A stretch of DNA of 64,000 bases from Eledone cirrhosa (Eukaryota), in the NCBI GenBank assembly GCA_964016885.1, contig OZ024743.1, forward strand, positions 16,492,001 through 16,556,000. Reading direction: 5' to 3'. Position 1 is the stretch's first letter, and every line of letters starts with the position of its first letter. The notes beneath the pieces are model-generated. The model saw nothing but the letters and a program-made list of their open reading frames with translations. It did not search any database and was not told where the DNA came from. Of the stretch, positions 1-41,891 are shown piece by piece. Both the position numbers and the translations under genes were made by a program.

Positions 1-782
1 GGAACCAGCAGTGCCATAGCGTTGACATTTGGCCGGTGGCGGGGTCACTAAGTCAATCTATTTATATATTTTGCTAGCCTCTCCCTTGTCTAGTGATATC
101 GCCATTTTCCCCTCTCTTAAGTTAACAGATGTTAATGGGGGAATAGTGGTGGTAGCAATGAAGGAATGGTGGCGGCGGTGATGGGATAGTGGTAGCAATG
201 ATGGAAGGAGTGGTGGCGGCGGTGACTATAGTAATGGCGTTGTCGTTACTGAGTTTTGTTGAATAGATTGTAGTTAGTTTGATCTGTGTATCTATACGGT
301 TTGTCGCGTATGTTTAATATATGTGTTGACATATTTTCTTAATATTGGAATTAAACATTTTGTGAAAACTTGAGACAATAATAATAGTAATTATTATTAT
401 TATGCTGGGATTGGTGGTGGTGGTGGTGAAATTGCTGTTATCTGGCTGTTGTATTTAATGTACACAGAAGGGTGATGGGATAGGTGGTGTATTTCGTTTG
501 TGGTGTTGGTGAAATTGCTGTTATTTGGCTGTTCTATATAGTGTAGACAGAGGGGTTTTTTTCTTCCATTTATAACCATTTTCTTTTTTTAATATTTATA
601 ATACAAAATTGAATATTTGAGCGATATAACAGGATATTATGGATCCGAATTTCCTGAGAGCTGGGTCTGGTGCTTTATGTACCATTTATACTAAGAATTG
701 TTATTTCACAATTGATTTAAATATGTTAAAAATCAAAAACTTACGGGAGCGATTTCATGACCTTCTATCCACCACGTGCGTT
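1..782 (-). mobile_element. possible 5' end and ORF1 N-terminus of another LINE, head-to-head with copy A1
   Basis: Minus strand has an AT-rich leader, ATGs near 569-578 and ACC/AAC-rich low-complexity coding-like sequence resembling the ORF1 N-termini of B and C; starts at the (GAA)n tract; no diagnostic domain in the window. Confidence 0.3.
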
Positions 783-837
783 TTCTTCTTCTTCTCCTTC
801 TTCTTCTTCTTCTTCTTCTTCTTCTTTTCTTCTTCTT

Positions 838-868
<31 letters not shown>

Positions 869-885
869 TTATTATTATTATTATT
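783..885. repeat. compound (TTC)n-(TTA)n microsatellite abutting the 5' end of Tx1 copy A1
   Basis: Read directly: (TTC)n about 783-865, then (TTA)n 866-885, then GAATGC element start. Confidence 0.95.
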
Positions 886-1101
886 GAATGCTATGGTTGA
901 CGGAGGCTCGGTTCTGTAAGGTATTGTAAATTTTGAACGCTATAACAATTGTAAATTGTTTAAAACTTTAACGAACTTGTAGACAAAAACACCCTCCTCC
1001 TCGTGAGAGGCATCTTTCTGCCCGTTATTTGGCCCTTCGGGGTTAAATAACTGCTTATTGGGGTTTTGTGCCCAATATTTATTTTAAACAAAAAAAACAA
1101 C

Positions 1102-3218
1102 ATGGCTACGAAAAAGAATTTTCATAGGTCACTCCCACTTATCCGTCTTCTTCTTCCTCAATCATCACTACAGCAGAGAGAAGATTGTCTCTCTCCCTCC
1201 CTTCTTTAAATGTGTCTCTCTCCCTCCCTTCTCTTTCGCAAGCGACGACAGAAAAGAAAAGTCTCGTGCAAAGCGTGCAAGATTTCTCCACGACGACGAC
1301 GACAACGACGAAACAGGTGTGCGGGATACACGAAAACCTATTTCATTCGTCGGACGTCAGGAATAATAGCAGTAGCAGCCGTAATAACAACAGCAACAGT
1401 GACAATGAAAACAACAGTAGCAGCCGCAACAGCATCACCAGCAGCATAAACAACAACAGCATTAGCAGCAGCAACACCAACAACAACCACAGCAACAGCG
1501 GCGGAGGCAGTAGTCGTAGTACCTGCAGCGACAAAAAAAGTAACAGCAGCTCTGACGACAACAACAACAACAGCAGCAAAGAAAAACCAATCTCGTTTGC
1601 AAGTATCGCGAAGAACCTGGAAACAATCCTCATAACAAATGAGGAATTAGAGGAAGCGAAGAAGATGGTGACAAAGACTGGACACCGAGCAATCTGCAAG
1701 GCAGGGGGAAAATTTTTCGAAACCCAACAGCACTGTACGGTCACGTACCGTACAGTAAGTACAAAATCCCATAGTGTTGAAAGAGCCACAGAGGCTGAAA
1801 TACAAAAAGCCTTGGGGTTTGTGTGGCAGCGGAAAACGCACATCACCCGAGGCAAAAAATATGCCACCGTAGACGTACTTTTTGCCACACCCCAGGAGGC
1901 AAAGGCTCAATCCATAGTGACCCTAAGGAGCGAGGAAATGGTGTTGGTGCCCTCCTACTGCGGGCAAAAAATTGTGAGGGTCAAACTGACCCACGTCCCC
2001 CCCTCCCCCCCCCCCCCCGGGATGGCCCCTTCTTGGCTGGCCGCGTCCGTCCTCGTCGGAATCGAGGACAAAACAACTGTACTGCAAGTACAGAAAAAAG
2101 TAAGAGAAGATTGGGTCGGCACCTCCATTGAGATGTTAATCCAAACCAACCAGGAGTGCATCGAAGCTATCCCGGATGTGATAGACTTCGATAACGGCAC
2201 TCAACTGCCCATAAGTGTTGAGGGCAAACGCCCGAATTTCTTTCGCTGTGGATCGAAGACTCACCTCAGGGCCTTCTGCAACGAGAAGACCCTGAGAAAG
2301 GAGAAAACCCCCCTCCTTCCGAAACCGGTTCCACGGCTACCAGCAACAGGACAAGCGGCAACCAGGAACGATAGGTCCGTGGCACCCATACCTACGCCAC
2401 GGAAATCAAAAACAGCAGCAGCAGTAGAAATATTAACAACAACAACAGTAATACCAACTGCAGCTGCAACAGAGACTCCAGTGCAAACATCACCAACAAC
2501 AACAAGTGAAAGAGTGGAGCAGGTAACCCTCCCCGACCTCACATAATCAGACATGGAGTGTGAGGTGGGAGAGGGATGGCAAAAGGTCGTAAGAAGGCAC
2601 AAACGCAGAAGCAGCGCATCGTCGCCTTTGAAAAGGGAGGAAAAGAAATGAGAAAAGGGTAAAGTCTACTGCAAAGAGACTCACAGCAGCAATACCACTA
2701 ACACCATCACCACCCACACTAGAACCACCATCACCACCGGCGACAACCCCACCGCCAACAACACCTTCAACACCACTACCACAAGCACCAACATCGCGAA
2801 CACAACAACAAAACACACACACCCAGCAACAACGACAAAAATTAGCAGAACCACACCCCACCTCCAGAAAAACAAATGCACGGCAATAAATACACACAAC
2901 AAGAAACTAATGACTTACATAATTGAACACACAGACATTTCACAACACGACTACATAATATCAGCACCGATCAAAACGCCAACTAACATAAGACTGCTAA
3001 AAATAGCACAGAAAAAATACACAGACATTAAAACGAAATTCCCCAACGCGGTTGGTGATTTCAGGGACCTAGGAGGAACTATCAATCGAAGAGTATATTC
3101 GGACATACTCATAGAAGAGCCGACGACCAGCCGAAGGGACGATTCAACGGTCCCTTCACCAGACGATCAAGTGAAAAGGGATGTAAAAACCATCCCTCCT
3201 CTACGAAAAGTACGGTAA
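1102..3218 (+). pseudogene. ORF1 (gag-like) of copy A1, disrupted
   Basis: ATG at 1102; N/S-rich tract, central conserved domain, degraded knuckle (FFRCGSKTHLRAFC), T/P-rich tract; frameshifts and stops (e.g. TAA 2544-2546) relative to A2. Confidence 0.9.
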
Positions 3219-3253
3219 GTGGACTTTCCTATCTTTTCCACTCTATTTTAAAC

Positions 3254-6200
3254 ATGAACTCACTCAGAATAGGCAGCATAAATGCTGCTCAACGACCTCA
3301 GGTCACTAAACATAGATGTAGTGGCCATCAGCGAGACCAGAATCTCCGAAGGACGGGCCTTCGCACCGATCTTCGGCGGCTACGATGTGTACGCATCTCC
3401 CAGCCGTCCTGTATCGGGGGGAGGAGTTGCTGTGCTTTTTCGGAGAGGTTTGGATCTCGCCATACGGGCCATCTTCCTGGACCCAGAGGGTAAGCTGGTG
3501 GTGCTGGACGTGACCAGCGGAGACGGGCAAGCTTTCAGACTAGTGGCCGTCTATGCTCCAACAGGAGCAGGGCGGCCTGATTTCTTCCGGCGTCTGGAGA
3601 CCTTTCTTGGAACGTCCCGCTCTTTAGTGTTAGTGGGCGACTGGAACGGGATCTTAAATGCACGCTGGGACTGTGTGGGATTAGCGGATAGGGGTGGAGG
3701 GTGCAAGAACCTCACCAACCTACTCAGGTGTTTTGAACTGTCTCACAGGTACCGATTGGATTTCCCGAATGTGCCAATGTGGACTTGGACAAATCGCATA
3801 GGGTCATCCAGATCATATCTAGAAAGAGTATTTTGTAGGGAAATAGATAGGTCTAGCATAGGCTGTCCACAATTCAAGATAGTCAGCTACACGGACCACA
3901 AATTCGTGATCTGTGTGCTTGACTTAGATAGGCTTCATAGACGAGGACCCGGCTACTGGAAGCTAAATGCGTCCTTACCAGCGCGCAAGGCCTACAGAGA
4001 CTGGATTAGCGAACTAGTTAAGCGGGCGTTGACGGGGCCCATCGTCAACAACAAGTGGCGGTTTGCTCTGAAAAGAGCGATTAGAATAGAATCCATTAGG
4101 TTTAGTAAGGCTTTAGCAAATAGAGAAAAATAGGGCAGAGGGAGAACTAGTTAGAAAATTAGACGAGGCGCTTAGCAAAGGCATTGCGACCGACGTGCTT
4201 GCGGCGAAATTGGCCCTTGACCAATTCTTCAATGCAAAGCACGAAGGCTGCGTTGTCAGAGCAAGGGTGCGTGCTCTCAGACACGAGGTGACGAAAGCCG
4301 TTCAATGGGCCCGAGTGGCGGAGGCGCGTCGTGGCAACACAGCCACGATCCGGTCTTTAGTGGACCACGACGGGCGCATGCTACTCGATCCCGGGCAAAT
4401 GTGTGAAGCTTTTCAGCGACACTTCGCTCAGCTGTTCGGGGGCAGCGCTGGGCTGGGTCGAGGGATGGATTTTAGTGTCTACCTCGACGGACTGCCGCGG
4501 CTCTCGGCCACTGAGGCGAAGTTTTGCGAAAAGCCGATAACAGCCGCTGAAGTAAGGGAGGCAATGACTGGCTGCACAAGGGGTAAATCGCCTGGTTTGG
4601 ATGGTCTGCCCTATGAACTTTACGTACAGATGCCAGACTTGTTCGGAGGCCTCTTGGCGGACGTCTACTGCAGTTGACAACAGAACGGGAGAATTCCCAG
4701 TTCTGTGAGCCGAGGAGCGGTGGCACTGCTGAGAAAGAATCCGAACAAGGGGGATAACGCAGATAATTTCCGGCCCATAACTCTGCTAAACACAGAGTTC
4801 AAGATTTTGGCCATGGTGCTAGCAAAGAGGTTGGCGCTTGTCGTTGGTGGTCTGGTGAGAGGGGCGCAGACATGTGCCATTCCCGACTGATCCATACACG
4901 ACAACCTCCACCTCATGCGATACATCGTAGATAGGGTAGCTAGGGAACCTGGCACGGGTGGGTCCTTGATCAATTAAGATCAGTCGAAAGTGTTCGATAG
5001 GGTCGACCATCGTTACATAGCGGCAGTCCTGAGGGCGGCTGGCTTTGGGCCCGTCTTCAGAGGCTGGATCGCTGCCATGCACAGCGACATCTGCTCTGTG
5101 GTGAGAGTGAACGGTCACCTGTCGGAACCGTTCAACATCATGCGCTCGGTCCGCCAAGGATGCCCCCTCTCGTCCCTCTTGTACGTATTGACTCTCGAAC
5201 AATTACTGCACATACTGGAGACGTTGAGGGGCGTCCCGCGCGAACTAGGATGCGGAAGATCCGTGTCAGCATATGCGGACGATGACACCGTAGTGGTGTC
5301 GAACGCCAAACACATCGAGGCGATCGGCACTACACTAAGAGAATACGAAGCGGTGACAGGAGCAATGATCAACCAGGAAAAGTCAGTGGGCCTGCTGCTC
5401 GGCAACTGGAGAGGCAGGTCCATGCCGTCCAACAGCGTCGTCGGACGCTGGACGAGCGGACCGGTTAAATTGCTAGGGGTCTGGTTCGGTCCGGACCTCC
5501 AGACGGACAAGAACTGGGACGAGGTGACGAGCAGGGTGGCTTCTCTCACCCAGAAATGGGCGTAGAGGAAGCTATCCCTGAAAGGTCGAGCGGAGGTGGC
5601 TAACGCGTACATCGCGTCTGTCATCTCCTACCGCCTGACCGTCGTACCTTGTCGTAAGCCTCGCCTGACTGCGCTGGAGAGTTTGCTCTTTCGCTTTTTG
5701 TGGAAGGGACGCGCTCCGATGGTCAGGCGGTCCATCTGTTGTCAACACCCGCTACATGGAGGGCTGGGCATGCCGTGGCTGATGATGCGCAGGCACGCGC
5801 TCAGGCTACGACATCTCCACCTCTTCCTCGACGGTGATCACCGTTTGGTGGTCGCCGTTTGCTAGACACGTATTTCCCCAGCTAGTTTCCTTGACGGAGC
5901 TGCAGTCCTGGGTCAAGCGAGGACCGAGAGGGAGCGCCTGGAGACTGGAATGTCTTCAGGCGCTCACAGCCCTCGACCAATCGGGCAATGTGATCGGTGG
6001 AAACTCCACCTTGGCGTTCTATAGAGGATTAGTGGAGGGGAAGAGCGACGACGTACTTGGGGAAACTCTAGGCGTCGACGAAATTCAACTAGCCATTCTC
6101 TTAGGAAGAACTTTCGGGCCAGGGCCTATGGACAATTTCCAGAAATCTCTGGCCTGGCAGTGCTACCGAGGAGCCTTGCCAGTTCGGGATAAACTCTACA

Positions 6201-6642
6201 GGCATGGAGGTGCCGTCAGCCGGGCATGTCCGAGATGCGCGCAGGGCGACGAAACCGTCCTGCGCGCACTCGTCCAGTGTCCGAAAATTGCTGACTTGTG
6301 GGTTTATGTCGAACACCTGCTGTCGCGTTTAGGACGGTTCCGGCTATCATCTGAGTCCATCGTGAGGATTGCTCCGCCCTCCTCCTTTAGCCGGGAAGGG
6401 CAGGCAGTTTTTAACTGTCTGGTGGCCATGGCGAAAAGATAGTATGGTGGACACGTTTGAAAGGGCTGAAGACGAACACTTACCTCTTCGGTGATGCTCT
6501 GATTGACTTTTTCAAATTTCATTTGAAAAGGAAAATCAGAGTAGAGAGGGAAGTGCTCTCTTCCCAGCATTTTGTTGAAAGATTGGTGAGAGAAGCAAGA
6601 ATGGCCCGAGTGAATGGGCCTACTCTGAGTATATATCTGTAA
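3254..6642 (+). pseudogene. ORF2 (APE endonuclease + reverse transcriptase + C-terminal Cys/His zinc motif) of copy A1, disrupted
   Basis: ORF-track fragments 3282-4133, 4195-4677, 4990-5565, 5834-6442 and 6457-6642 match the intact ORF2 at 41892-45311 (GDWN, TDHK, SPGLDG, QGCPLS, YADD). Confidence 0.95.
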
Positions 6643-7132
6643 ATTAAAGGTGGACAACTGGGAGAGGGCACTTGCCTTGGTGGTCAGGGTCATTGTGGCT
6701 TTTTAATGGGCTTTCTCCACAAATCTCCCTCCGAAGTCTCAACCCTATTGGGGAATTTTTCATTGTTATTTTTTGTTACATCCTCTGTTTTTGTTTTTTA
6801 CACGCAGAAATGCCCATTTGTACCGTCCTGTATTGTCCTGCACTGTCCTTAATGTCTACTTTATGTAAACCCTTGTGGTTAATAAAGAAATCATTATTAT
6901 TATTATTATTATTATTGAATGCCATGGTTGACGGAGGCTCGGCTCTGTAAGGTATAGTAATTTTTAACCGTTAAAACAATTGTAAATTGTTTAAAACTTG
7001 AACGAAATTGTTGATAAAGACACCCTCCTCCTCGTGAGAGGGGTCTTTCTGTCCGTTATTTGGCCCTTCGGGGTTAAATAACCAGTTATTGGGGTTTTGT
7101 ACCCAAAATTTCATTTTAAACAAAAAAACAAC

Positions 7133-9229
7133 ATGGCTACGAAAAAGAAATTTCATACGTCACTCCCACTCATTCCGTCTTCTTCTTCCTCAATCATCAC
7201 TACAGCAGAGAGAAGATTGTCTCTCTCCCTCCCTTCTTTAAATGTGTCTCTCTCCCTCCCTTCTCTTTCGCAAGTGACGAAAGAAAAGAAAAGTCTCGTG
7301 CAAAGCGTGCAATGTTTCTCCACGACGACGGCGACAGCGACGAAACAGGTGTGCGGGAAATACGAAAACCCAGTTCATTCGTCTGACGTCAGGAATAATA
7401 GCAGTAGCAGCCGTAATAACAACAGCAACAGTGACAATGAAAACAACAGTAGCAGCCGCAACAGCATCACCAGCAGCATAAACAACAATAGCATTAGCAG
7501 CAGCAACACCAACAACAACCACAGCAACAGCGGCGGAGGCAGTAGTCGTAGTACCTGCAGCAACAACAAAAGTACCAGCAGCTCTGACAACAACAACAAC
7601 AGCAGAGAAAAACCAATCTCATTTGCAGGTATTGCGAAAAACTTGGAAACAATCCTCATAACAAATGAGGAATTAGAGGAAGCGAAGAAGATGGTGACAA
7701 AGAACGGACACCGAGCAATCTGCAAGGCAGCGAAAAATTGTTTCGAAACCCAAGAGCACTGTACGGTCACGTACCGTACAGTAAGTACAAAATCCCGTAG
7801 GGTGGAAAGAGCCACAGAGGCCCAAATACAAAAAGCCTTGGGGTCTGTGTGGCAGCGGAAAACGCACATCACCCGAGGCAAAAAATATGCCACCGTAGAC
7901 GTACTTTTTGCCACACCCCAGGAGGCAAAGGCCCAATCAGTAGTGACCCTAAGGAGCGAGGAAATGGTGTTGGTGCCCTCCTACTGTGGGCAAAAAATTG
8001 TGAGGGTCAAACTGACCCACGTCCCCCCCGGAATGACCCCTTCTTGGCTGGCCGCGTCTGTCCTCGTCGGAATCGAGGACAAAACAACTGTACTGCAAGT
8101 ACAGAAAAAAGTAAGAGAAGATTGGGTCGGCTCCTCCATTGAGATGCTAATCCAAACCAACCAGGAGTGCATCGAAGCTATCCCGGATGTGATAGACTTC
8201 GATAACGGCACTCAACTGCCCATAAGTGTTGAGGGCAAACGCCCGAAATGCTTTCACTGTGGATCGAAGACTCACCTCAGGGCCTTCTGCAACTAGAAGA
8301 CCCTGAGAAAGGAGAAAACCCCCCTCCTTCCGAATCCGGCTCCACGGCTACCAGCAACAGGACAAGCGGCAACCAGGAACGATAGGCCCGTGGCACCCAT
8401 ACCCACTCCACGGAAATCAAAAACAGCAGCAGCAGTGGAAATACTAACAACAACAACAGCAATACCAAATGCAGCTGCAACAGAGACTCCAGTGCAAACA
8501 TCACCAACAACAACAAGTGAAAGAGTGGAGTTGGTACCCCTCCCCGACCTCACAGAATCAGACATGGAGTGTGAGGTGGGAGAGAGACGGCAAAAGGTCG
8601 TAGGAAGGCACAAACGCAGAAGCAGCGCATCGTCGCCTTTGAAAAGGGAGGAAAGAAATGAGAAAAGGGTAAAGTCTACTGCAAAGAGACCCACAGCAGC
8701 AACAACACCAACACCATCACCACCCACACTAGCGCCACCATCACCACCGGCGACAACCCCACCGCCAACAACACCTTCAACACCACCACCACAAGCACCA
8801 ACATCGCAAACACAACAACAAAACACACACACCCAGCAACAACGACAAGAAAATAGCAGAACCACACCCCACCCCCAGAAAAACAAATGCACGGCAATAA
8901 ATACACACAACAAGAAACTAATGACTTACATAATTGAACACACAGACATTTCACAACAGGACTACATAATACCAGCACCAATCAAAAAGCCAACTAACAT
9001 AAGACTGCTAAAAATAGCACAGAAACAATACACAAATATTAAAACGAAATTCCCCAACGCAGTTGGTGATTTCAGGGACCTAGGAGGAACCATCAATCGA
9101 AGAGTATACTCAGACATTCTCTTAGAAGAGCCGACGACCAGCCGAAGGGACGATTCAACGGTCCCTTCACCAGACGATCAAGTGAAAAGGGATGTAAAAA
9201 CCATCCCTCCTCTACGAAAAGTACGGTAA
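7133..9229 (+). pseudogene. ORF1 of copy A2, about 698 codons with a single premature TAG at 8294-8296
   Basis: ORFs 7097-8296 and 8390-9229 are in the same frame; CCHC knuckle CFHCGSKTHLRAFC; A1 and A3 have GAG at the stop position. Confidence 0.92.
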
Positions 9230-9264
9230 GTGGTCTTTCCCATCTTTTCCACTCTATTTTAAAC

Positions 9265-12200
9265 ATGACCTCACTCAGAATAGGCAGCATAAATGCGCGT
9301 GGCTTGGGGTCGTCATGGAAGCAGGGTCACCTGCTCAACGACCTCAGGTCACTAAACATAGATGTAGCGGCCATCAGCGAGACCAGAATCTCCGAAGCAC
9401 GGGCCTTCGCACCGATCTTCGGCGGCTACGATGTGTACGCATCTCCCAGCCGTCCTGGATCCGGTGGAGGAGTTGCTGTACTTTTTCGGAGAGGATTGGA
9501 TCTCGCCATACGGGCCATCTTCCTGGACCCAGAGGGTAAGCTGGTGGTGCTGGACGTGACCAGCGGAGACGGGCAAGCTTTCAGGCTAGTGGCCGTCTAT
9601 GCCCCGACAGGAGCAGGGCGGCCTGATTTCTTCCGGCGTCTGGAGACCTTTCTTGGAACGTCCCGCTCTTTAGTGTTAGTGGGCGACTGGAACGGGATCT
9701 TAGATGCACGCTGGGACTGTGTGGGATTAGCGGATAGGGGTGGAGGGTGCAAGAGCCTCACCAACCTGCTCAGGCGTTTTGAACTGTCTGACAGGTACCG
9801 ATTGGATTTCCCGAATGTGCCAATGTGGACTTGGACAAACCGCATAGGGTCATCCAGATCATATCTAGATAGAGTATTTTGTAGGGAAATAGATAGGTCT
9901 AGCATAGGCTGTCCACAATTCAAGATAGTCAGCTACACGGACCACAAATTCGTGATCTGTGTGCTTGACTTAGATAGGCTTCATAGACGAGGACCCGGCT
10001 ACTGGAAGCTAAACGCGTCCTTACCAGCGCGCAAGGCCTACAGAGACCGGATTAGCGAACTAGTTAAGCGGGCGTTGACGGGGGCCATCGTCAACAACAA
10101 GTGGTGGTTTGCTCTGAAAAGAGCGATTAGAATAGAATCGATTAGATTTAGTAAGGCTTTAGCAATAGAGAAAAATAGAGCAGAGGGAGAACTAGTTAGA
10201 AAATTAGACGAGGCGCTTAGCAAAGGCATTGCGACCGACGTGCTTGCGGCGAAATTGGCCCTTGACCAATTCTTCAATGCAAAGCACGAAGGCTGCGTTG
10301 TCAGAGCAAGGGTGCGTGCTCTCAGACACGAGGGGACGAAAGCCGTTCAATGGGCCCGAGTGGCGGAGGCGCGTCGTGGCAACAAAGCCACGATCCGGTC
10401 TTTGGTGGACCACGACGGGCGCATGCTACTCGATCCCGGGCAAATGTGTGAAGCTTTTCAGCGACACTTCGCTCAGCTGTTCGGGGGCAGCGGTGGGCCG
10501 GGTAGAGGGATGGACTTTAGTGTCTACCTCGACGGACTGCCGCGGCTCTCGGCCACTGAGGCGAAGTGTTGCGAAAAGCCGATAACAGCCGCTGAAGTAA
10601 GGGAGGCAATGACTGGCTGCACAAGGGGTAAATCGCCTGGTTTGGATGGTCTGCCCTATGAACTTTACGTACAGATGCCAGACTTGTTCGGAGGCCTCTT
10701 GGCGGACGTCTACTGCAACTGGCAACAGAACGGGAGAATTCCCAGTTCTGTGAGCCGAGGAGCGGTGGCACTGCTGAGAAAGGATCCGAACAAGGGGGAT
10801 AACATAGAAAATTTCCGGCCCATAACTCTGCTAAACACAGAGTTTAAGATTTTGGCCAAGGTGCTAGCAAAGAGGTTGGCGCTTGTCGTTGGTGGTCTGG
10901 TGGGAGAGGCGCAGACATGCGCCATTCCCGACAGATCCATCCACGACAACCTCCACCTCATGCCATACATCGTAGAGAGGGTAGCTAGGGAACCTGGCAC
11001 GGGTGGGTCCTTGATCAATTTAGATCAGTCGAAAGCTTTCGATAGGGTCGACCATCGTTACCTAGCGGCAGTCCTGAGGGCGGCTGGCTTTGGGCCCGTC
11101 TTCAGAGGCTGGATCGCTGCCATGCACAGCGACATCTGCTCTGTGGTGAGAGTGAACGGTCACCTGTCGGAAACGTTCAATATCATGCGCTCGGTCCGCC
11201 AATGATGTCCCCTCTCGTCCCTCTTGTACGTATTGATACACGAGCCATTACTGCACAAACTGGTGACGTTGAGGTGTGTCCCCTGTACTAGGATGCGGAA
11301 GATCCGTGTCAGCATATGCGGACGATGTCACCGTAGTGGTGTCGAACACCAAACACATCGAGGCGATCGGCACTACACTAAGAGAATACGAAGCGGTGAC
11401 AGGAGCAATGATCAACCAGGAAAAGTCAGTGGGCCTGCAGCTCGGCACCTGGAGAGGCAGGTCCATGCCGTCCAACAGCGTCGTCGGACGCTGGACGGAC
11501 GGACCGGTTAAATTGCTAGGGGTCTGGTTCGGTCCGGACCTCCAGACGGACAAAAACTGGGACGAGGTGACGAGCAGGGTGGCTTCTCTCACCCAGAAAT
11601 GGGCCGAGAGGAAGCTATCCCTGAAAGGTCGAGCGGAGGTGGCTAACGCGTACATCGCGTCCGTCATCTGCTACCGCCTGGCCGTCGTACCTTGTCCTAA
11701 GCCTCGCCTGACTGTGCTGGAGCGTTTGCTCTTTCGCTTTTTGTGGAAGGGACGCGCTCCGATGGTCAGGCGGTCCATCTGTTGTCAACACCCGCTACGT
11801 GGAGGGCTGGGCATGCCGTGGCTGATGATGCGCAGGCACGCGCTCAGGCTACGACATCTCCACCTCTTCCTCGACGGTGATCAGGTGTGGTCGCCGTTTG
11901 CTAGACGCGTGTTTCCCCAGCTCGTTTCCTTGACGGAGCTGCAGTCCTGGGTCAAGCGAAGACCGAGAGGGAGCGCCTGGAGACTGGAATGTCTTCAGGC
12001 GCTCACAGCCCTCGACCAATCGGGCAATGTGATCGGTGGAAACTCCACCTCGGCGTTCTATAGAGGATTAGTGGAGGGGAAGAGCGACGACGTACTTGGG
12101 GAAACTCTAGGCGTCGACGAAAATCAACTAGCCAATCTCTTCGGAAGAACTTTCGGGCCAGGGCCTATGGACAACTTCCAGAAATCTCTGGCCTGGCAGT

Positions 12201-12682
12201 GCTACCGAGGAGCCTTGCCAGTTCGGGATAAACTCTACAGGCATGGAGGTGCCGTCAGCCGGGCATGTCCGAGATGCGCGCAGGGCGACGAAACCGTCCT
12301 GCACGCACTCGTCCAGTGTCCGAAAATTGCTGACTTGTGGGTTTATGTCGAACACCTGCTGTCGCGTTTAGGACGGATCCGGCTATCATCTGAGTCCATC
12401 GTGAGGATTGCCCCGCCCTCCTCCTTTAGCCGGGAAGGGCAGGCAGTTTTTATCTGCCTGGTGGCCATGGCGAAAGAGATAGTATGGTGGACACGTTTGA
12501 AAGGGCTGAAGACGAGCACTTACCTCTTCGGTGATGCTCTGATTGACTTTTTCAAATTTCATTTGAAAAGGAAAATCAGAGTAGAGAGGGAAGTGCTCTC
12601 TTCCCAGCATTTTGTTGAAAGATGGGTGAGAGAAGCAAGAATGGCCCGAGTGAATGGGCCTACTCTGCGCATATATCTGTAA
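9265..12682 (+). pseudogene. ORF2 (APE-RT-Zn) of copy A2, broken only by TGA 11203-11205 and a frameshift near 11285
   Basis: 646-aa and 468-aa ORFs are almost identical to the intact ORF2. Confidence 0.95.
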
Positions 12683-12930
12683 ATTAAAGGTGGAAAACTG
12701 GGAGAGGGCACTTGCCTTTGTGGTCAGGGTCATTGTGGCTTTTTACTGGGCTTTCTCCACAAATCTCCCTCCGAAGTCTCCCCCCTATTGGGGAATTTTT
12801 CATTGTTATTTTTTGTTACATCCTCTGTTTTTGTTTTTTACACGCAGAAATGCCCATTTGTACCGTCCTGCATTGTCCTGCACTGTCCTTAATGTCTACT
12901 TTATATAAACCCTTGTGGTTAATAAAGAAA

Positions 12931-12975
<45 letters not shown>

Positions 12976-13197
12976 TTATTATTGGCGACCTACGTAGTAA
13001 ATCGTATCATCGTAAGATTCGCAAAGTTTTGTTATTTTCAGTTGTTTAAAAATGCCATTCATGGAAAATTGTTATTGTTAACTGTATATAAGTGCACATA
13101 CATTGTTATCTGAAAAAGACACCCAAAAAGATTGGGGCCTTGAGCCCAAAACTTAAACTTTTATAATTATCAAACAAACATTTTTCTTTGAAAAATC

Positions 13198-15136
13198 ATG
13201 GCTGACTCAGAGTCACTCCTTTCTCACAAACTAAAACCTCACACCGAGACCACCATTGTAAATATTACTACGTTTGCCAACACTGAAATATAAACAGTAG
13301 CAATATTTTTAATTTGTCTCTGGCAGACATTCATTTCCCACCATTACCAATGACTGCAGATGTTAAAGCCGCCACCACCACCACCACCGCGACAACCACC
13401 ACCCTCACCACCACTGCGACAACAGAAACAAAAGAAAAAATAAATTAACTCGTGATATCGAAATGAATTCAACCAAAATGAACTCTTCCACACCGAACAC
13501 CACTGACGCCACCACCACCACAACTGAAACTAAAATTAATAATAACAAAAATAACGATAACAACAACAGCAACAATGACATTAAGAAAACCACCCTGATT
13601 TTGCCACAGTAGCAAAACAGTGCGAAGCATTTCAAGTAACTTAGGAGGAATTAGAAGAAACCAAAACAATAGTAAAGAAAGATGGGTACGGGGTCAGCCC
13701 CCCCCCACACCTAATAAAATGGAGTATCGGCGCCTATGCACCGTGTCCTATCTAACAATTAATATAAAATCGCGCCGATTGGAACTGGCATCCGAGTCTC
13801 AAATCCCAAATGCTTTGGGACATGTGTGGGCAAAAAACCCCACATCAGTCGTGGGCAGAAGTATGGAACCGTGGACGTGTTCTTTGAAACACCACAGGAG
13901 GCTAGAAAACACTCCATGGCCCCATTAAGAAGTGACGACTTCACACTCGTCCCAAGCTATTGTGGCCAGAGACTCGTAAAGATCAGCGTCACCCATGTTC
14001 CACCGACCCTGAAATTCCCTGGCTAATAGCTGCCGTCCTCGCCAGCATCGAAGCCAACACCAAGATAATCGAAATAGCGAAAGAAAAGCAGGAGAACTGG
14101 TCCGGATCTGGGATGGAGCTCCTGATCCAAGCGGACCAAAAAAGCATTGAGGAGATCCCAGAGGTAATAGACCTCACTGACGGCAGCCACCTCACCGTAA
14201 TTGTCGAGGGCAGAAGGCCTAGGTGTGTCGTTTGTGGTGAAGGAACCCACCTAAGGGCTTTCTGCCCTCAGGCTAAAAGGTTGAGGCCACCTCTCCTAAC
14301 CATCCCAGTGACTCAACCATCAACACCGCCAGCAGCAGAGATGGCAGCAACAACTGTAGCAGCAACAACAGAAGCAACTGTAACCACAACAACCCCAGCA
14401 AAAGTAGCAAAACCAACATCACCACCACCCAACGCGTCAGAACTAGCACCAGCGCCTACACCATCCACCACGCCACAACCAAAACTAACGCCTGTGGAGG
14501 ATCTTCCACTCCCCGGCCTATCACAACTGGAGACAGATTGTGACGACGAGGAGTGGTAAACGGTATCAGGAAAAAAGTAAAAAAGAACCCCAAAAGAAAA
14601 AAATTCTCTTCCTTCCCCTTCCAAAAACAAAATACAGAGGCAAACAAATATACTATCAAACAAAAAAGTTAGGACAGATATGCCACCATCCACACCAGCA
14701 TCATCAACCCCATCACCCCAAACACCAACACCATCACCATCATTAACCACAACACCACCATCACCTACAACACAAAAGTCACCAAAAAGCGAAACAGAAA
14801 CAAACCCACAACAAACACAAATAAAACAAAACAACCAAAACTATACACACTACACAGCATTAAATTTGAACAACCAATTATTACACTACATCCAACACAA
14901 CACCAGCATCACAGAAAAAAATACACAAAAACCCAAAAGTTCACACCAACTCCACAAAACAAACCACTCGCTTCATACAGAAAACGTACATGACACTAAA
15001 ACAAAAATTCCACAAAGAAATCGGAGACTTCCGACAAGCACTCTCCAGGAGGATTTATAAAGACATCCTTCCTGATGAGGCCACAAGCAGTGAAAATGAT
15101 GGAGAAACCGTCCTTCCTCTACGAGAAGGAAGGTAA
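13198..15136 (+). pseudogene. ORF1 of variant B, frameshifted
   Basis: ATG 13198; fragments 13826-14026, 13960-14559, 14680-15060; CCHC knuckle; ends AGG TAA, equivalent to CGG TAA in A. Confidence 0.85.
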
Positions 15137-15170
15137 GTGGTCTTTCCCATCTTTTCCACTACATTTCAAC

Positions 15171-18100
15171 ATGACCTCACTCAAAATAGGCAGCATAAAT
15201 GCGCGTGGCTTGGGACCGTCATGGAAGCAGGGCCACCTGCTCAACGACCTCAGATCACTAAACATATATGTAGTGGCCATCAGCGAGACCAGAATACGGA
15301 AGCACGGGCCTTCGCACCGATCTTTGGCTGCTACAATGTGTACGCATCTCCCAGCCGCCTGGGATCGGGGGGGGGGGCGTAGTTGCTGTGTACTTTCGGA
15401 GAGGTTTGGATATTGCCATACGGGCCATCTTCCTGGACACAGAAGGGAAGTTGGTGGTGCTGGAGGTGACCAGCGGAGACGGGCAAGCTTTCAGGCTAGT
15501 GGCCGTCTATGCTCCGACAGGAGCAGGGCGGCCTGATTTCTTCCGGCGTCTGGAGAACTTTCTTAGAACGTCCCGCTCTTTAGTGTTAGTGGGCGACTGG
15601 AACGGGATCTTAGATGCACGCTGGGACTGTGCGGGATTAGCGGATAGGGGAGGAGGGTGCAGGAGTCTCACCAACCTGCTCATGCGTTTTGAACTATCTG
15701 ACAGGTACCGATTGGATTTCCCGGATGTGCCAATGTGGACTTGGACAAATCGCATATGGTCATCCAGATCATATCTAGATAGAGTATTTTGTAGGGAAAT
15801 AGATAGGTCTAGCATAGGCTGTCCACAATTCAAGACAGTCAGCTACACGGACCACAAATTCGTGATCTGTGTGCTTGACTTAGATAGGCTTCGTAGACGA
15901 GGACCCGGCTACTGGAAGCTAAACGTCTCCTTACCAGCGCGCAAGGCCTACAGAGACCGGATTAGCGAACAAGTTAAGCGGGCGTTGACGGGGGCCATCG
16001 TCAACAACAAGTGCTGGTTTGCTCTGAAAAGAGCAATTAGAATAGAGTCCATTAGGTTTAGTAAGGCTGTAGCAATAGAGAAAAATAGAGCAGAATTAGT
16101 TAGAAAATTAGACGAGCCGCTTAGCATAGGCATCGCGACCGACGTACTTGCGGCGAAATTGGCCCTTCACCAATTCTTCAATGCAAAGCACGAAGGCTGC
16201 GTTGTCAGAGCTAGATTGCCTGCTCTCAGACACGAGGGGACAAAAGCCGTTCAATGGGCCCGAGTGGGGGAGGCGCGGCCTGGCAACAAAGCCACGATCC
16301 GGTCTTTGGTGGACCACGACGGGCGCATGCTACTCGATCCCTGGAAAATGTGTGAAGCTTTTCAGCGACACTTCGCACCGCTGTTCGGGGACAGCGGCGG
16401 GCCGGATCGAGAGATGGATTTTAGTGTCTACCTCGACGGACTGCCGCGGCTCTCGGCCACTGAGGCGGAGTGTTGCGAAAAGCCGATAACAGCCGCTGAA
16501 GTACGGGAGGCAATGACTGGCTGCATAACGGGTAAATCGCCTGGTTTGGATGATCTGCCCTATGGACTTTACGTACAGATGCCAGACTTGTTCAGAGGCT
16601 TCTTGTCGGACGTCTACTGCAACTGGCAACAGAACGGGAGAATTCCCAGCTCTGTGAGCCGAGGAGCGGTGGCGCTGCTGAGAAAGGATCCGAACAATGG
16701 GGATAATATAGATAATTTCAGGCCCATACTGTGCTATACACAGAGTTCAAGATTTTGGCCAAGTTGCTAGCAAAGAGGTTGGCGCTTGTCGTTGGTGGTG
16801 TGCGCCATTCCCGACAGATCCATCCACGACAACCTCCACCTCATGCGATACATCGTAGAGAGGGTAGCTATGGAACCTGGCACGGGTGGGTCCTTGATCA
16901 ATTTAGATCAGTCGAAAGCTTTCATTAGGGTCGACCATCGTTACATAGCGGCAGTCCTGAGGGCGGCTGGCTTTGGGCCCGTCTTCAGAGGCTGGATCGC
17001 TGCCATGCACAGCGACATCTGCTCTGTGGTGAGAGTGAACGGTCACCTTTCGGAACCGTTCAACATCATGCGCTCGGTCCGCCAATGATGTCCCCTCTCG
17101 TCCCTCTTGTACGTATTGATACACGAGCCATTACTGCACAAACTGGTGACGTTGAGGTGTGTCCCCTGTACTAGGATGCGGAAGATCCGTGTCAGCATAT
17201 GCGGACGATGTCACCGTAGTGGTGTCGAACGCCCAACAAATAGAGGAGATCGGCACTACAATAAGAGAATACGAAGCTGTGACAGGAGCAATGATCAACC
17301 AGGAAAAGTCAGTGGGCCTGCAGCTCGGCACCTGGAGAGGCAGGTCCATGCCGTCCAACAGAGTCGTCGGGCGCTGGAGGGACGGACCGGTTAATTTGCT
17401 AGGGGTCTGTCAGACGGACAAACACTGGGACGAGGTGACGAGCAGATTTGCTCCTCTCACCCATAAATGGGCGGAGAGTAAGCTATCCCTGAAAGGTCGA
17501 GCGGAGGTGGCTAACACGTACATCGCGTCCGTCATCTACTACCGGCTGACCGTTATAACTTGTCCTAAGCCCCGCCTGACTGCACTGGAGCGTTTGCTCT
17601 TTCGCTTTTTGTGGAAGGCACGCGCTCCTATGGTCAGGCGGTCCATCTGCTGTCAACACCCGCTATGTGGAGGGCTGGGCATGCCGTGGCTAATGATGCC
17701 CAGACACGCGCTCAGGCTACGACATCTCCACCTCTTCCTCGACGGGTATCAGGTGTGGTCGCCGTTTTCTAGACACGTCTTTCCCCAGAGCTGCAGTCCT
17801 GGGTCAAGCGAAGACCGAGAGGGAGCGCTTGGAGACTGGAATGTCTTCAGGCGCTCACAGCCCTCGACTAATCGGGCAATGTGATCGGTGGAAACTCCAC
17901 ATTGGCGTTCTATAGAGGATTAGTGGAGGGGAAGAGCGACGATGCACTTGGGGAAACTCTAGGCGTCGACGAAAATCAACTAGCCAATCTCTTCGGAAGG
18001 ACTTTCGGTCCTGGGCCTATGGACAACTTCCAGAAATCCCTGGCCTGGCAGTGCTACCGAGCAGCTTTGCCAGTTCGGGATAAACTCTACAGGCATGGAG

Positions 18101-18534
18101 GTGCCTTCACCCGGGCATGTCCGAGATGCGCGCAGGGCGACGAAACCGTCCTGCACGCACTCGTCCAGTGTCCGAGCATGCTGACTTGTGGGTTTATGTC
18201 GAAGACCTGCTGTCATGTGTAGGACGGCTCCAGCTATCAGCTGAGTCCATCGTGAGGATTTGCCGGCCCTCTCCCTGTACCCGGGAAGGGCAGGCATTTT
18301 TTATTTGTCTGGTGGCCATGGCGAAAGAGATAGTATGGTGGACACGTTTGAAAGGGCTGAAGACGAGCACTTACCACTTCGGTGATGCCCTTATTAAGTT
18401 TTTAAAATTTCATTTGAAAAGGAAAATCAGGGTAGAGGGGGAAGTGCTCTCTTCCCAGCATTTTGTTGAAAGATGGGTGAGAGAAGCAATTATGGCCCGA
18501 GTGAATGGGTCACACTCTGAGTTTTTGTCTGTAA
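15171..18534 (+). pseudogene. ORF2 (APE-RT-Zn) of variant B, multiple frameshifts
   Basis: MTSLKIGSINARG start; fragments 15388-16770, 16786-17088, 17159-17884, 17881-18222, 18117-18539. Confidence 0.92.
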
Positions 18535-19068
18535 ATTAAAGGTGGAAAACTGGGAGAGGGCACTTTCCCTGGTGGTCAGGGACACTGTGGCCTTTTAATG
18601 GGCTTTCCACAAATGTCCCTCGGAAGTCTCCCTCCTATTGGGAAATTTTTCATTGTTATTTTTTATTACATCCTCTGTTTTTTTTACACGCAGAAATGCC
18701 CATTTGTAGCATTCTGTATTGTCCTGTACTGCCCTTAATGTCTACTTTACGTAAACCATTGTGGTTAACAAAGAAAGCATTATTATTAATATTATTGTTA
18801 TTATTATTATTATCTTGTCATATTATTCTTTTAATATTGATTTAGGCATTAAATAACAATTTAATTTTTATTAAACCAAAATCTTAGTCACCATCTTGTT
18901 ACGGCAAAAACAATAACAGTGTATGTACGTTTAATGATTAGAATCTACACAACCTATCCATCAAGAATTTTCTCAATTCACATTTCTCTTATAAAAAAGA
19001 GAATTTCATTTTACCAATCGATTTTTTATTTCTTGTTATTATGGAATTATCTTATTATCTCTCTCTTC

Positions 19069-38600: not shown

Positions 38601-38917
38601 ATCCCAGCGTGCGTCTAAGATGCCATTCCGGTCCCCCGCTAACAGTAAAGGGCGAGACGTACCCAGAAAGGACTCCAGGCGCCTAAAGAATTCCGGTCGT
38701 CCGGCCCCACCTTCCATTCCCGGTCTGCTAACAGATGCTAAGATCTGATAGTCGTCGAAAACGGGGTTTAGTGTGCGCGTGTCGAAAATTCTGGTCTCGC
38801 TGACGGCAATCACATCCATTTCCAGCGACCTGACCTAAGGTCGTTGAGCAGGCGACCCTGTTTCCAGGGTGACCCCAGGCCGCGAACATTTAAACTTCCT
38901 CCTCTTAATATGACCAT
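35624..38917 (-). pseudogene. ORF2 (APE-RT-Zn) of family C, frameshifted
   Basis: MVILRGGSLNVRG start; fragments 38526-38819, 38183-38572, 37521-38234, 36698-37669 (DQSKAFD, YADD), 36120-36683, 35619-35984. Confidence 0.92.
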
Positions 38918-38946
38918 ATTGGTAAGCTAAGAGAGAGAGGGAAGGT

Positions 38947-40946: not shown

Positions 40947-41173
40947 AATTTGTTGGGGGGTGGGGAGGCGATTTTTTTTCGAAGTTTTTTAAAAATAAAT
41001 CTGAATATTTGGGCTTAAAGCCCGAATATTGAGAGGTATCCCGCTCTTTAAATCAAGATGTGTACCTTAAGTTTCGTTAACGACAAGAAAATACAAAAAA
41101 TGACACTTTAAACATCTTAAAGTTACGAAACATTTCCCCTGCAGATTTGTACTGTCTTCACACATGTGCAGCC

Positions 41174-41572
41174 ATAATAATAATAATAATAATGTATTCT
41201 TTATTAACCACAAGGGTTTACATAAAGTAGACATTAAGGACAGTACAGGACGGTACAAATGGGAATTTCTAGTGTTGGCAAACGTAGTAATATTTACAAT
41301 GGTGGTGTCGGTGTGAGGTGTTAGTTTGTGAGGAAGGCTCTCAGCTGCTTGGTGCAGAGGTGAATCAGCCATGAATTTTTGAAAGAAATTTTTTGATAAT
41401 CATAAAAGTTTAAATTTTGGGCACAAGGCCCCAATCTTTTTGGGTGTCCTTTTGGGAAAACAATGTATGTAGAGTTAACAATAAAAAATTTCAATAAATG
41501 GCAATTTTTAACAAAGGGAAACAACACACTTTTGCGGAGCTAACCATGATACGATTTACTACGTAGGTCGTC
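41174..41572 (-). mobile_element. 379-bp internally deleted non-autonomous derivative of variant B (41194-41572) plus (TTA)n tail
   Basis: 41572-41270 matches the B 5'UTR/ORF1 start (12984-13288); 41270-41194 matches the last about 75 bp of the A/B 3'UTR. Confidence 0.9.
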
Positions 41573-41588
41573 AATAATAATAATAATG

Positions 41589-41631
<43 letters not shown>

Positions 41632-41891
41632 TTTCTTTATTAACCACAAGGGTTTACATAAAGTAGACATTAAGGACAGTGCAGGACAATGCAGGACGGT
41701 ACAAATGGGCATTTCTGCGTGTAAAAAAACAAAAACAGAGGATGTAACAAAAATAACAATGAAAATAACAATGAAAAATTCCCCAATAAGGGGGAGACTT
41801 CGGAGGGACATTTGTGGAGAAAGCCCAGTAAAAAGCCACAATGACCCTGACCACCAAGGCAAGTGCCCTCTCCCAGTTTTCCACCTTTAGT

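What the first reader, a model, noticed from the sequence alone, without database searches (positions are those of the whole stretch)
886..18813. Self-stacking (TTA)n-associated Tx1 retrotransposons: plus-strand head-to-tail array
Seen: three full-length units (A1, A2, B), each ending in (TTA)n and each starting at a G immediately after (TTA)nTT, with no spacer DNA. The first unit also has (TTA)n upstream. The least mutated copy is in the middle and the units differ in divergence and ORF1, which argues for successive insertions rather than tandem duplication. Known: Tx1-clade families include sequence-specific elements (Kibi and Koshi in microsatellites, Keno in U2, Mutsu in 5S, Dewa in tRNA spacers). 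Inference: an endonuclease targeting (TTA)n, combined with a (TTA)n tail, makes each insertion regenerate its own target and builds interstitial arrays. I cannot tell whether this family is already catalogued.
Basis: partly seen in the sequence, partly recalled or inferred. Interest (0 to 1): 0.75.

Follow-up and report, generated by a model that had tools for sequence, protein, structure and literature searches.

The report
(TTA)n-targeting LINE that stacks on itself
A 6-kb LINE retrotransposon family that ends in (TTA)n lies almost only inside (TTA)n microsatellites of this 3-Gb animal genome, so separate insertions pile up head to tail; its endonuclease is predicted to nick that repeat, which would make it a further example of the known microsatellite-targeting LINEs rather than a new kind of element.

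Summary
Window 886-18813 holds three abutting plus-strand LINE copies (886-6916, 6917-12983, 12984-18813). Each ends in (ATT)n and each starts at a G directly after ...ATT. A second three-copy array lies on the minus strand (35305-53585).

The intact copy encodes ORF1 (598 aa, CCHC knuckle) and ORF2 (1139 aa: APE, RT, zf-RVT). Its best solved relative is human L1 ORF2p.

Genome-wide evidence:
- 2815 of 2928 family-A 5' ends and 2805 of 2961 family-B 5' ends are preceded by ATTATTATT.
- 14 of 23 5'-truncated copies also abut ATT repeats.
- 4 solitary copies inspected show no unique-sequence target-site duplication.
- Array neighbours are not each other's closest relatives, so the arrays come from successive insertions.
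- At least 326 stacked junctions exist.

Tx1-clade membership could not be tested with named references.

New points:
- The array continues leftward as two opposite-strand Dong-like (restriction-like endonuclease) LINEs that use the same tract.
- A SINE with about 184,000 copies has duplications starting ATTAT, which suggests the nick site.

Verdict: a new member of a known kind, of moderate interest.

The parts
1..867 (-). 5' part of an opposite-strand Dong-like (restriction-like-endonuclease) LINE. Its own 5' end is an expanded (GAA)n, read as (TTC)28 at 783-867 on the + strand. The element continues upstream of the window.
   Evidence: Window 445-788 matches the first 368 nt of the minus-strand element in L063 (74%). 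tblastn of that element's RT and C-terminal ORFs hits the upstream stretch L065 at about 43% identity. The same 5'-end sequence precedes (ATT)n in L063, L107 and L138.
866..885 (+). (TTA)6.7 tract upstream of the first unit; the remaining target repeat
886..6916 (+). Unit A1, full-length family-A copy with broken ORFs and a (ATT)8 tail at 6893-6916
   Evidence: 94.9% to M2
6917..12983 (+). Unit A2, full-length family-A copy and the youngest of the plus array; ORFs interrupted (387, 221, 646 and 424 aa pieces); (ATT)17 tail at 12933-12983
   Evidence: (98.4% to M2)
12984..18813 (+). Unit B. The 3' 3.8 kb is like family A (91%). The 5' 2 kb is of a second 5'-end type (GGCGACCTACG...). Imperfect (ATT)11.7 tail at 18779-18813.
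47650..53585 (-). Unit M3, an older family-A copy (about 92% to the others) with tail (AAT)16 at 47650-47697; first unit of the minus-strand array
41573..47649 (-). Unit M2, a copy with both reading frames open: ORF1 45639-47435 (598 aa) and ORF2 41892-45311 (1139 aa); tail (AAT)19 at 41573-41629
35305..41572 (-). Unit M1, a diverged family (about 75% nt identity to M2), same 5'-end type as unit B, tail (AAT)12.7 at 35305-35343
53586..53606 (-). (ATT)7 tract (read on the minus strand) between a SINE and the 5' G of M3
53607..53771 (-). tRNA-like SINE copy, 5'-truncated by about 17 nt. The array M3-M2-M1 sits in its ATT tail.

Best explanation
Window 886-18813 is three separately inserted copies of a ~6-kb LINE family (APE endonuclease + reverse transcriptase, L1/Tx1-like) whose copies end in (TTA)n and lie inside (TTA)n tracts genome-wide; its endonuclease is predicted to nick the complementary (TAA)n strand, so that each new tail would serve as the next target.

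Shown:
- The anatomy of the element: two ORFs, the second with APE, RT and zf-RVT domains.
- The precise junction ...ATTATT|G at every full-length 5' end sampled.
- ATT repeats on both sides of full-length copies and of most 5'-truncated copies.
- No duplication of unique flanking sequence.
- Array neighbours that are not sister copies.
- Hundreds of stacked junctions, and arrays of at least 5 units elsewhere in the genome.

Inferred:
- Target-primed reverse transcription in which the (UUA)n RNA tail pairs with a 3' end made in the (TAA)n strand.
- The nick position. A 184,000-copy SINE with the same tail orientation has 6-30 bp target-site duplications that begin ATTAT after a pyrimidine. This would place the bottom-strand nick at 5'-ATAAT^R, which is T^AA in every repeat unit. 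The constant ...ATT|G 5' junction would place the top-strand break at ATT^ATT.
- A (TTA)n tract is therefore a tandem array of nick sites. Each insertion leaves such tracts on both sides: 18-81 bp upstream and a 5-65 bp tail.
- This explains both self-stacking and mixing with other elements that use the same repeat.
For: Domains:
- Pfam finds Exo_endo_phos at 22-210, RVT_1 at 511-754 and zf-RVT at 974-1026 in the 1139-aa ORF2.
- The best solved relatives are human L1 ORF2p (E 1e-52, aligned 5-855), against R2 at 1e-21.
- The APE alignment to L1 EN keeps the N (SINARG), E (ISETR), Y (YAP) and D-x-N (GDWN) positions.

Target:
- 30 of 30 5' flanks on contig C1 are (ATT)n directly before GAATGC.
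- 2815 of 2928 family-A 5' ends and 2805 of 2961 family-B 5' ends have ATTATTATT in front. Reversed-pattern controls gave 0.
- 14 of 23 truly 5'-truncated copies are ATT-flanked.
- 4 solitary full-length copies inspected (L098, L109, L111, L112) show no unique-sequence duplication outside the repeat.

Independent insertions: the tree and identities.

Stacking:
- 10 of 30 5' ends are preceded by another LINE 3' end.
- 326 exact stacked junctions, with runs of 4 junctions about 6.05 kb apart.

Nick site:
- 27 of 30 SINE copies have ATTAT right after the SINE end.
- 20 of 30 have a detectable duplication. 19 of these begin ATTAT, and the preceding base is C or T in 20 of 20.
Against: - No biochemical test of the endonuclease was possible.
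- The SINE-LINE partnership rests on tail orientation and a weak 3'-end resemblance (CCTTGTG.CTAA at the same offset; shuffle p about 0.03 for M1 and 0.28 for family A). No shared hairpin was found. The nick site may therefore belong to another LINE.
- 9 of 23 truncated copies are not ATT-flanked. They have (TTC)n, (ACT)n or unique sequence instead.
- The SINE and some truncated LINE copies (L043, L045, L049) use short ATTAT sites, whereas about 95% of full-length LINE 5' ends have at least 3 units upstream. This difference is unexplained.
- The sampled loci are the first listed on one contig, not a random genome sample.
- The arrays were not checked against long reads.
Confidence: 0.78

Rival explanations
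1. The specificity would come mainly from base-pairing of the (UUA)n RNA tail with (TAA)n DNA, not from the endonuclease. The endonuclease would recognise only a short, common site (Y^ATTAT), or pre-existing breaks in fragile AT-rich tracts would be used. Long tracts would win because they pair best with the tail.
For: - SINE copies and some truncated LINE copies (L043, L045, L049) sit at short ATTAT sites, so the minimal cleavage site is only about 5-6 nt.
- Full-length copies nevertheless need at least 3 units upstream in about 95% of cases. This hints at an additional length-dependent step.
Against: - The 5' junction is in one phase (...ATT|G) in 32 of 32 sampled copies. This suggests a sequence-specific second-strand break as well.
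- The APE catalytic positions are kept.
- The two models cannot be separated in silico.
Confidence: 0.2
2. The arrays arose by local tandem duplication or unequal crossing-over between (TTA)n tracts of one original insertion.
For: Units are the same length and are separated only by a recombination-prone microsatellite. One 395-bp local tandem duplication of a 3' fragment exists elsewhere (L066).
Against: - A1-A2 identity is 96.1%, but A2 is 99.1% identical to a copy at another locus (L108) and 98.8% to M2 on the other strand. A1's nearest copy is L107.
- Unit B has a different 5' 2 kb.
- The arrays mix families and even opposite-strand LINEs of another superfamily.
Confidence: 0.04
3. The upstream (TTA)n is carried in by the RNA, through read-through or upstream-initiated transcripts from stacked donors, and integration itself is not repeat-specific.
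For: Every full-length copy has the repeat at its 5' end, and many donors sit behind another copy's tail.
Against: - 5'-truncated copies cannot carry a 5' leader, yet they are ATT-flanked in 14 of 23 cases.
- The 4 solitary copies inspected show no ATTAT-N duplication outside the upstream repeat.
Confidence: 0.04
4. Insertion is random, but copies survive only in microsatellite-rich, gene-poor 'safe' DNA.
For: The window is AT-rich and repeat-rich.
Against: Survival bias cannot give base-precise, phase-constant junctions with one repeat motif in one orientation in about 95% of roughly 5900 5' ends. Many copies are over 99% identical, which is too young for much sorting.
Confidence: 0.02

Closest known systems
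Koshi and Kibi (Tx1-clade LINEs of teleosts) and the crocodilian Tx1 families in (TTCC)n/(TTTC)n
   Same: APE-type L1-group LINEs that insert specifically into one microsatellite motif: (TTC)n, (TC)n, (TTCC)n and (TTTC)n according to passages of PMC4494074 and PMC3812793. The element here passes Kojima's operational rule for target specificity (more than 20% of flanks, PMC4494074) by a wide margin.
   Different: The target motif is (TTA)n and the host is a mollusc-like genome (one named hit points to an octopus). No (TTA)n/(TAA)n-specific Tx1 family was found in the text I could search. Clade membership is not confirmed by phylogeny.
Dong (R4 clade) of Bombyx, Anopheles and Biomphalaria
   Same: It uses the same microsatellite duplex: (TAA)n is Dong's reported target (PMC3812793, passage). 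Dong-like elements flank and interleave with the arrays here.
   Different: Dong-type elements carry a C-terminal restriction-like endonuclease and a (TAA)n tail. The element studied here has an N-terminal APE and a (TTA)n tail, so it enters the same tract in the opposite orientation. The two are unrelated lineages: the RT of the neighbour scores best to R2, while the element here scores best to L1.
Human L1
   Same: Same ORF2 architecture, and it is the best structural relative. The logic is the same: the tail repeat is complementary to the primer strand made by the nick. L1's TTTT^AA site with its poly(A) tail is recalled knowledge. The inferred nick here is also at a T^A step.
   Different: L1 inserts almost anywhere A/T-rich and has a Transposase_22 ORF1. 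Here the tail is (UUA)n, the ORF1 has a CCHC knuckle and no Transposase_22 hit, and full-length copies are confined to (TTA)n tracts.
Tx1 of Xenopus, and Keno
   Same: Target-specific APE LINEs of the L1 group (PMC4494074, passage).
   Different: Their targets are a DNA transposon (Tx1D) and U2 snRNA genes, not a microsatellite. Self-stacking is not a built-in consequence there.
Telomere-repeat LINEs TRAS/SART (R1 clade; recalled, not checked here)
   Same: APE LINEs that insert into a short tandem repeat in a fixed orientation and form arrays.
   Different: A different clade and a different repeat, (TTAGG)n. Their tails are poly(A), so they do not recreate their own target in the tail.

Membership tests
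L1-group non-LTR retrotransposon (APE + RT) | N-terminal apurinic-like endonuclease domain | tested here: met
   Pfam PF03372 at residues 22-210, E 8e-14. It aligns to L1 EN with the N, E, Y and D-x-N positions kept.
L1-group non-LTR retrotransposon (APE + RT) | Reverse transcriptase closest to L1 ORF2p rather than to RLE-type or other LINE RTs | tested here: met
   PDB phmmer gives human L1 ORF2p at E 1e-52 over residues 5-855, and R2 proteins at 1e-21 or weaker. Only solved structures were compared, so CR1, RTE, I and Jockey RTs were not represented.
L1-group non-LTR retrotransposon (APE + RT) | C-terminal cysteine-rich (zf-RVT) region and a separate ORF1 | tested here: met
   PF13966 at 974-1026. 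ORF1 of 598 aa lies upstream of ORF2.
Tx1 clade | RT-domain phylogeny groups it with named Tx1 elements, apart from L1 proper | not testable with these tools
   No named Tx1 or L1 reference sequence was returned by the protein searches or the Atlas. Repbase and Dfam are not available.
Tx1 clade | ORF1 of the RRM/CCHC type (Type I-like), not Transposase_22 | tested here: inconclusive
   A CCHC knuckle (CFRCGSKTHLRAFC) is readable in ORF1. No Pfam family reaches threshold, no Transposase_22 is found, and there is only a weak MBD hit. An RRM is not shown: the single-sequence fold had pLDDT 31. The Type I / Tx1 link comes from passages of PMC5203782.
Tx1 clade | Target-sequence-specific insertion | tested here: met
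Microsatellite-specific LINE (operational rule of Kojima 2015: one sequence type in more than 20% of flanks) | Same repeat in the flanks of most copies | tested here: met
   2815 of 2928 and 2805 of 2961 5' ends. 30 of 30 sampled. 14 of 23 truncated copies.
Dong / R4 clade (considered because of the TAA/TTA target) | Single ORF with a C-terminal restriction-like endonuclease and no APE | tested here: not met
   The element has an N-terminal APE and two ORFs. By contrast, the opposite-strand neighbours have CCHC + RPD...D motifs and an R2-like RT, so they, not this element, are Dong-like.

The most novel reading that the evidence does not exclude
The (TTA)n/(TAA)n microsatellite of this genome is a shared, self-renewing landing pad for three kinds of retroelement. 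An APE-type Tx1-like LINE enters in one orientation. RLE-type Dong-like LINEs enter in the other. A 184,000-copy SINE seeds new ATT sites across the genome. Each insertion would create new target for all of them, so unrelated endonucleases have converged on the two strands of one repeat and together build composite multi-element arrays. One such array is the five-LINE, roughly 28-kb block that includes window 1-18813.
Probability: 0.5. Interest if true: 0.6.

Novelty: new member of a known kind. Interest (0 to 1): 0.45.

Why it matters
- It adds a trinucleotide AT-only repeat to the short list of microsatellites known to be targeted by APE-type LINEs, and does so in a lophotrochozoan.
- Many copies are over 99% identical and one copy in the window has both frames open, so it offers a natural system for asking how an L1-like endonuclease acquires sequence specificity.
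- The built-in positive feedback (tail = target) explains interstitial LINE arrays without invoking duplication.
- The same tracts hold an unrelated RLE LINE in the opposite orientation, and the tail motif matches the insertion-site motif of an extremely abundant SINE. These findings bear on how microsatellites and retroelements shape each other in large cephalopod-type genomes.
- For genome annotation, such arrays should not be merged or treated as misassemblies.

Tried and rejected
- Named references for a Tx1/L1 phylogeny: two large protein searches (single sequence; 19-sequence profile) and the Atlas returned almost only unnamed proteins. No tree with named clades could be built.
- ORF1 fold: a single-sequence AlphaFold model of residues 151-400 had mean pLDDT 31. 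It is unusable, so no fold search was run.
- ORF1 Pfam scan at E<=10: only a weak MBD hit below threshold.
- LINE/SINE shared 3' structure: RNA folds of the last ~100 nt of family A, M1 and the SINE were no better than shuffles (z -0.97, +0.37, +0.49).
- A PDB search with the 186-aa C-terminal ORF of the Dong-like element found nothing. The RLE motifs were read from the translation instead.
- Expression: no RNA holder listed by the look-up of sequencing runs. Read laying was not used, because Logan contigs cannot span 6-kb repeats present in thousands of copies.
- A DNA search of the genome with the first 200 nt found only 2 places because common words are skipped.
- Two junction patterns were too long for the tool. 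A shorter one worked.
- Earlier findings of this scan: nothing on record.
- Considered and rejected (see rivals): tandem duplication, RNA-borne upstream repeat, survival bias, and (TTC)n as an independent second target. The (TTC)n tracts next to copies are the 5' ends of opposite-strand Dong-like elements.
Full report
**1. What is in the window**

- (TTC)28.7 at 783-867, then (TTA)6.7 at 866-885.
- A1 begins at G886 and ends in (ATT)8 at 6893-6916.
- A2 begins at G6917 and ends in (ATT)17 at 12933-12983.
- B begins at G12984 and ends in an imperfect (ATT)11.7 at 18779-18813.

A SINE comes first, then (ATT)7, then M3 (47650-53585), M2 (41573-47649) and M1 (35305-41572). The junctions have the same form.

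blastn of M2 against the window gives:
- A1 94.9% and A2 98.4%.
- B 91.3%, but only over the 3' 3.8 kb.
- M3 about 92% and 85% in two pieces.
- M1 about 75%.

B and M1 share a different 5' end, G[G/A]CGACCTACGTAGTAAATCG. At least two 5'-end types and one more diverged family are therefore present.

**2. What the element is**

Only M2 has both frames open: ORF1 of 598 aa and ORF2 of 1139 aa. The other five units have interrupted frames.

ORF2:
- It carries Exo_endo_phos at 22-210, RVT_1 at 511-754 and zf-RVT at 974-1026.
- Against all solved structures the best matches are human L1 ORF2p (E about 1e-52, aligned over residues 5-855). R2 proteins reach only 1e-21.
- The APE part aligns to L1 endonuclease with the N, E, Y and D-x-N positions kept.

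ORF1:
- It has no Pfam family at threshold and no Transposase_22 hit.
- It shows a CCHC knuckle in the printed sequence.

I could not obtain any named Tx1 or L1 reference from the protein searches. 'L1 group' is therefore tested, and 'Tx1 clade' is only consistent.

One named hit (an Octopus sinensis gene model, 64% identity over 5% of the query) and the 3.0-Gb genome size suggest an octopus. This is a lead, not a determination. Passages of PMC13282606 and PMC8967140 show that 'L1-Tx1' and 'Dong-R4' LINEs are listed among recently active or expanded repeats in octopus genomes. The passages I saw make no remark on target sites.

**3. Is (TTA)n the target?**

Genome-wide pattern counts (reversed-pattern control 0 in every case):

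| Pattern | Count |
|---|---|
| Family-A 5' 19-mer, <=1 mismatch | 2928 |
| Same, preceded by ATTATTATT + GAATGCN (35-mer, <=1 mismatch) | 2815 (96.1%, a lower bound) |
| Family-B 5' 22-mer | 2961 |
| Same, with the prefix | 2805 (94.7%) |

The first 30 family-A 5' ends listed on contig C1 all have (ATT)n directly before GAATGC, always in the phase ...ATTATT|G.

The sequence upstream of that repeat in the same 30 loci:
- Another LINE 3' end in 10.
- The SINE in 4.
- A (TTC)-rich sequence in 4, which is the 5' end of an opposite-strand LINE.
- Other repeats or unique DNA in 12.

Two alternatives to 'pre-existing repeat as target' were tested.

*First alternative.* If the upstream repeat were brought in by the RNA, 5'-truncated copies should lack it.
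- 70 3'-end loci were examined.
- 23 of them are true 5' truncations. Five further breaks are internal deletions, because the upstream sequence is still LINE coding sequence.
- 14 of the 23 abut ATT repeats.
- The other 9 abut (TTC)n (2), (ACT)n (1), a single unit or ATTAT(AT)n (2), or unrelated sequence (4).

*Second alternative.* Such a model predicts a duplication of unique sequence outside the repeats. Twenty full-length copies were fetched whole, and both flanks were printed for 19 of them; no 3' end was found for L101. I compared the two flanks by eye in the 4 solitary copies L098, L109, L111 and L112. None of the 4 shows such a duplication. Across the 19, upstream tracts are 18-81 bp and tails are 5-65 bp.

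The repeat is therefore target DNA, and each insertion leaves it on both sides.

**4. Successive insertion or duplication?**

In an alignment and tree of 23 full-length copies (4 from the window, 19 from contig C1):
- A2's closest copy is L108 (99.1%), then M2 (98.8%).
- A1's closest is L107 (96.9%), while A1-A2 is 96.1%.
- M2's closest is L099 (99.4%).
- M3 is about 92-93% identical to everything.

Neighbours are not sisters, so the arrays were built by separate insertions at different times. The tree is ladder-like with very short terminal branches, which indicates recent activity.

Stacking is general. The exact junction pattern (3' end, 4-34 nt, 5' end) occurs 326 times, with the control at 0. 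There are runs of four junctions about 6.05 kb apart, meaning arrays of at least five units. In all listed matches the spacer is (ATT)n with at most an occasional variant unit.

**5. Mechanism (inferred)**

The SINE in front of M3 belongs to a family whose 24-nt 3' end occurs 183,877 times (<=1 mismatch). In 30 sampled copies:
- 27 have ATTAT immediately after the SINE end.
- 20 have a detectable target-site duplication of 6-30 bp. The script tolerated one mismatch, which can lengthen a duplication by one base.
- 19 of the 20 begin ATTAT, and the base before is C or T in 20 of 20.
- Two of the 30 loci (L077 and L084) look like one duplicated locus.

With target-primed reverse transcription (established for LINEs), this places the first nick at 5'-ATAAT^R on the bottom strand. 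In a (TAA)n strand that is T^AA once per unit. The resulting 3' end is complementary to a (UUA)n tail. The constant ...ATT|G 5' junction would put the second break at ATT^ATT.

The SINE has the same tail orientation as the LINE. It shares only a weak 3' resemblance (CCTTGTG.CTAA at the same distance from the tail; shuffle p about 0.03 and 0.28) and no shared hairpin. The partnership, and hence the transfer of the nick site to this LINE, is an inference.

One point is unexplained. The SINE and some truncated LINE copies (L043, L045, L049) use short ATTAT sites, yet full-length LINE copies almost always have at least three units upstream. A rival reading is that tail-target pairing, rather than the endonuclease, selects long tracts. 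I give that reading about 0.2.

**6. Surroundings: a second, unrelated LINE uses the same repeat**

*Family D.*
- In 8 of 30 LINE tails the next sequence is GTTCTTTGAGTCTCAG.... This is the 3' end of a minus-strand element.
- That element is about 4.8 kb (L063 109-4942) and is flanked by (ATT)n on both sides.
- Its 898-aa ORF has RVT_1 and no APE. Its best solved relatives are R2 proteins (9e-26, against 1e-13 for L1).
- Its C-terminal frame reads CRICGEREETVAHIVSEC ... NRPDLVVVD ... IVDVACPFD, a CCHC plus PD-(D/E)xK-like restriction-type endonuclease (the motif assignment is from recalled knowledge of R2/R4 elements).

*Family D2.*
- It is about 43% identical in protein to family D.
- It has 4242 3' ends in the genome, 4060 of them abutting (ATT)3. 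Read on its own strand this is a (TAA)n-type tail.
- Two D2 copies lie directly left of A1: L065 805-4777, and L065 4858 to window 867.
- Their own 5' ends are (GAA)n. This is what the (TTC)17 and (TTC)28 tracts are.

TAA microsatellites are the reported target of Dong (R4 clade), including a snail element (PMC3812793, passage). The locus is therefore a five-LINE composite in one repeat:

(ATT)5 - D2(-) - (ATT)26 - D2(-) - (TTA)6.7 - A1 - A2 - B

It spans about 28 kb. The APE element and the RLE elements lie in opposite orientations.

**7. Comparison with what is known, and novelty**

Microsatellite-specific LINEs are a known kind:
- Kibi (TC)n, Koshi (TTC)n and crocodilian (TTCC)n/(TTTC)n families in the Tx1 clade.
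- Waldo and Mino in the R1 clade.
- Dong on (TAA)n.
- Togen on (TG)n.

These come from passages of PMC4494074, PMC3812793 and PMC4640811. The original Kojima and Fujiwara 2004 paper was not available to me.

Five full-text searches found no description of a (TTA)n- or (TAA)n-specific Tx1/L1-group element, and none of self-stacking arrays in cephalopods. Repbase, Dfam and the supplementary figures of PMC4494074 were not seen, so the family may already be catalogued.

I file it as a new member of a known kind. The interest is moderate rather than high. The most interesting extension is the shared use of one repeat by unrelated endonuclease types and a very abundant SINE.

Noticed in passing
window 1-867 and upstream locus L065 (G000:C4:16483001-16492000): Two opposite-strand Dong-like LINEs (RT closest to R2, restriction-like endonuclease motifs, (TAA)n tail on their own strand, (GAA)n at their own 5' end). 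They sit in the same ATT tract immediately left of unit A1. Two such families (D and D2) abut 10 of 30 sampled LINE tails. D2 has 4242 3' ends in the genome, 4060 of them next to (ATT)3.
   Followed up: partly
window 53607-53771 (-); loci L067-L096: A tRNA-like SINE with about 184,000 copies of its 3' end. Its copies are dispersed, mostly not in long repeats, and have 6-30 bp target-site duplications that begin ATTAT after a pyrimidine. Many copies are 5'-truncated.
   Followed up: partly
window 35305-53606 (-): A second three-unit head-to-tail array on the other strand, seeded in the ATT tail of a SINE. It contains the only copy in the window with both frames open (M2) and a 75%-identical family (M1).
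   Followed up: yes
window 57300-58344 and 60041-61111: A large inverted repeat with arms of about 1 kb (86-100% complementary in blocks) and about 1.7 kb between them. It matches the alternating GC skew (+0.47, -0.46, +0.46) at 58-64 kb. Purine-rich AG/GA-type short repeats lie inside the arms.
   Followed up: no
window 55486-55684 and 56139-56284: Two arrays of a 37-bp tandem repeat (5.4 and 3.9 copies, 96-97% matches).
   Followed up: no
window 29399-29823 (-): An isolated 425-bp fragment about 75% identical to the ORF1 region of M2. It is a remnant of a diverged family.
   Followed up: no
locus L046 (G000:C1:22029226-22032257): A short 5'-truncated LINE copy lies inside an (ACT)n/(TAC)n tract on both sides, with only one ATT unit after its 3' end. 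This is either an off-target insertion into a related trinucleotide repeat or a mutated tract.
   Followed up: no
locus L066 (G000:C1:45776500-45779500): A 395-bp unit containing the last ~215 nt of the LINE is tandemly repeated 2.4 times at 98% identity. This is a genuine local duplication, unlike the 6-kb arrays. The same truncation point (element position about 5861) recurs at another locus (L045).
   Followed up: partly
loci L004, L009, L097, L099, L145: Another repeat ending ...CATTCCTTCT(G/A)TAGC/TTTTT..GGTCTC recurs directly upstream of the ATT tract in several loci. Its identity was not determined.
   Followed up: no
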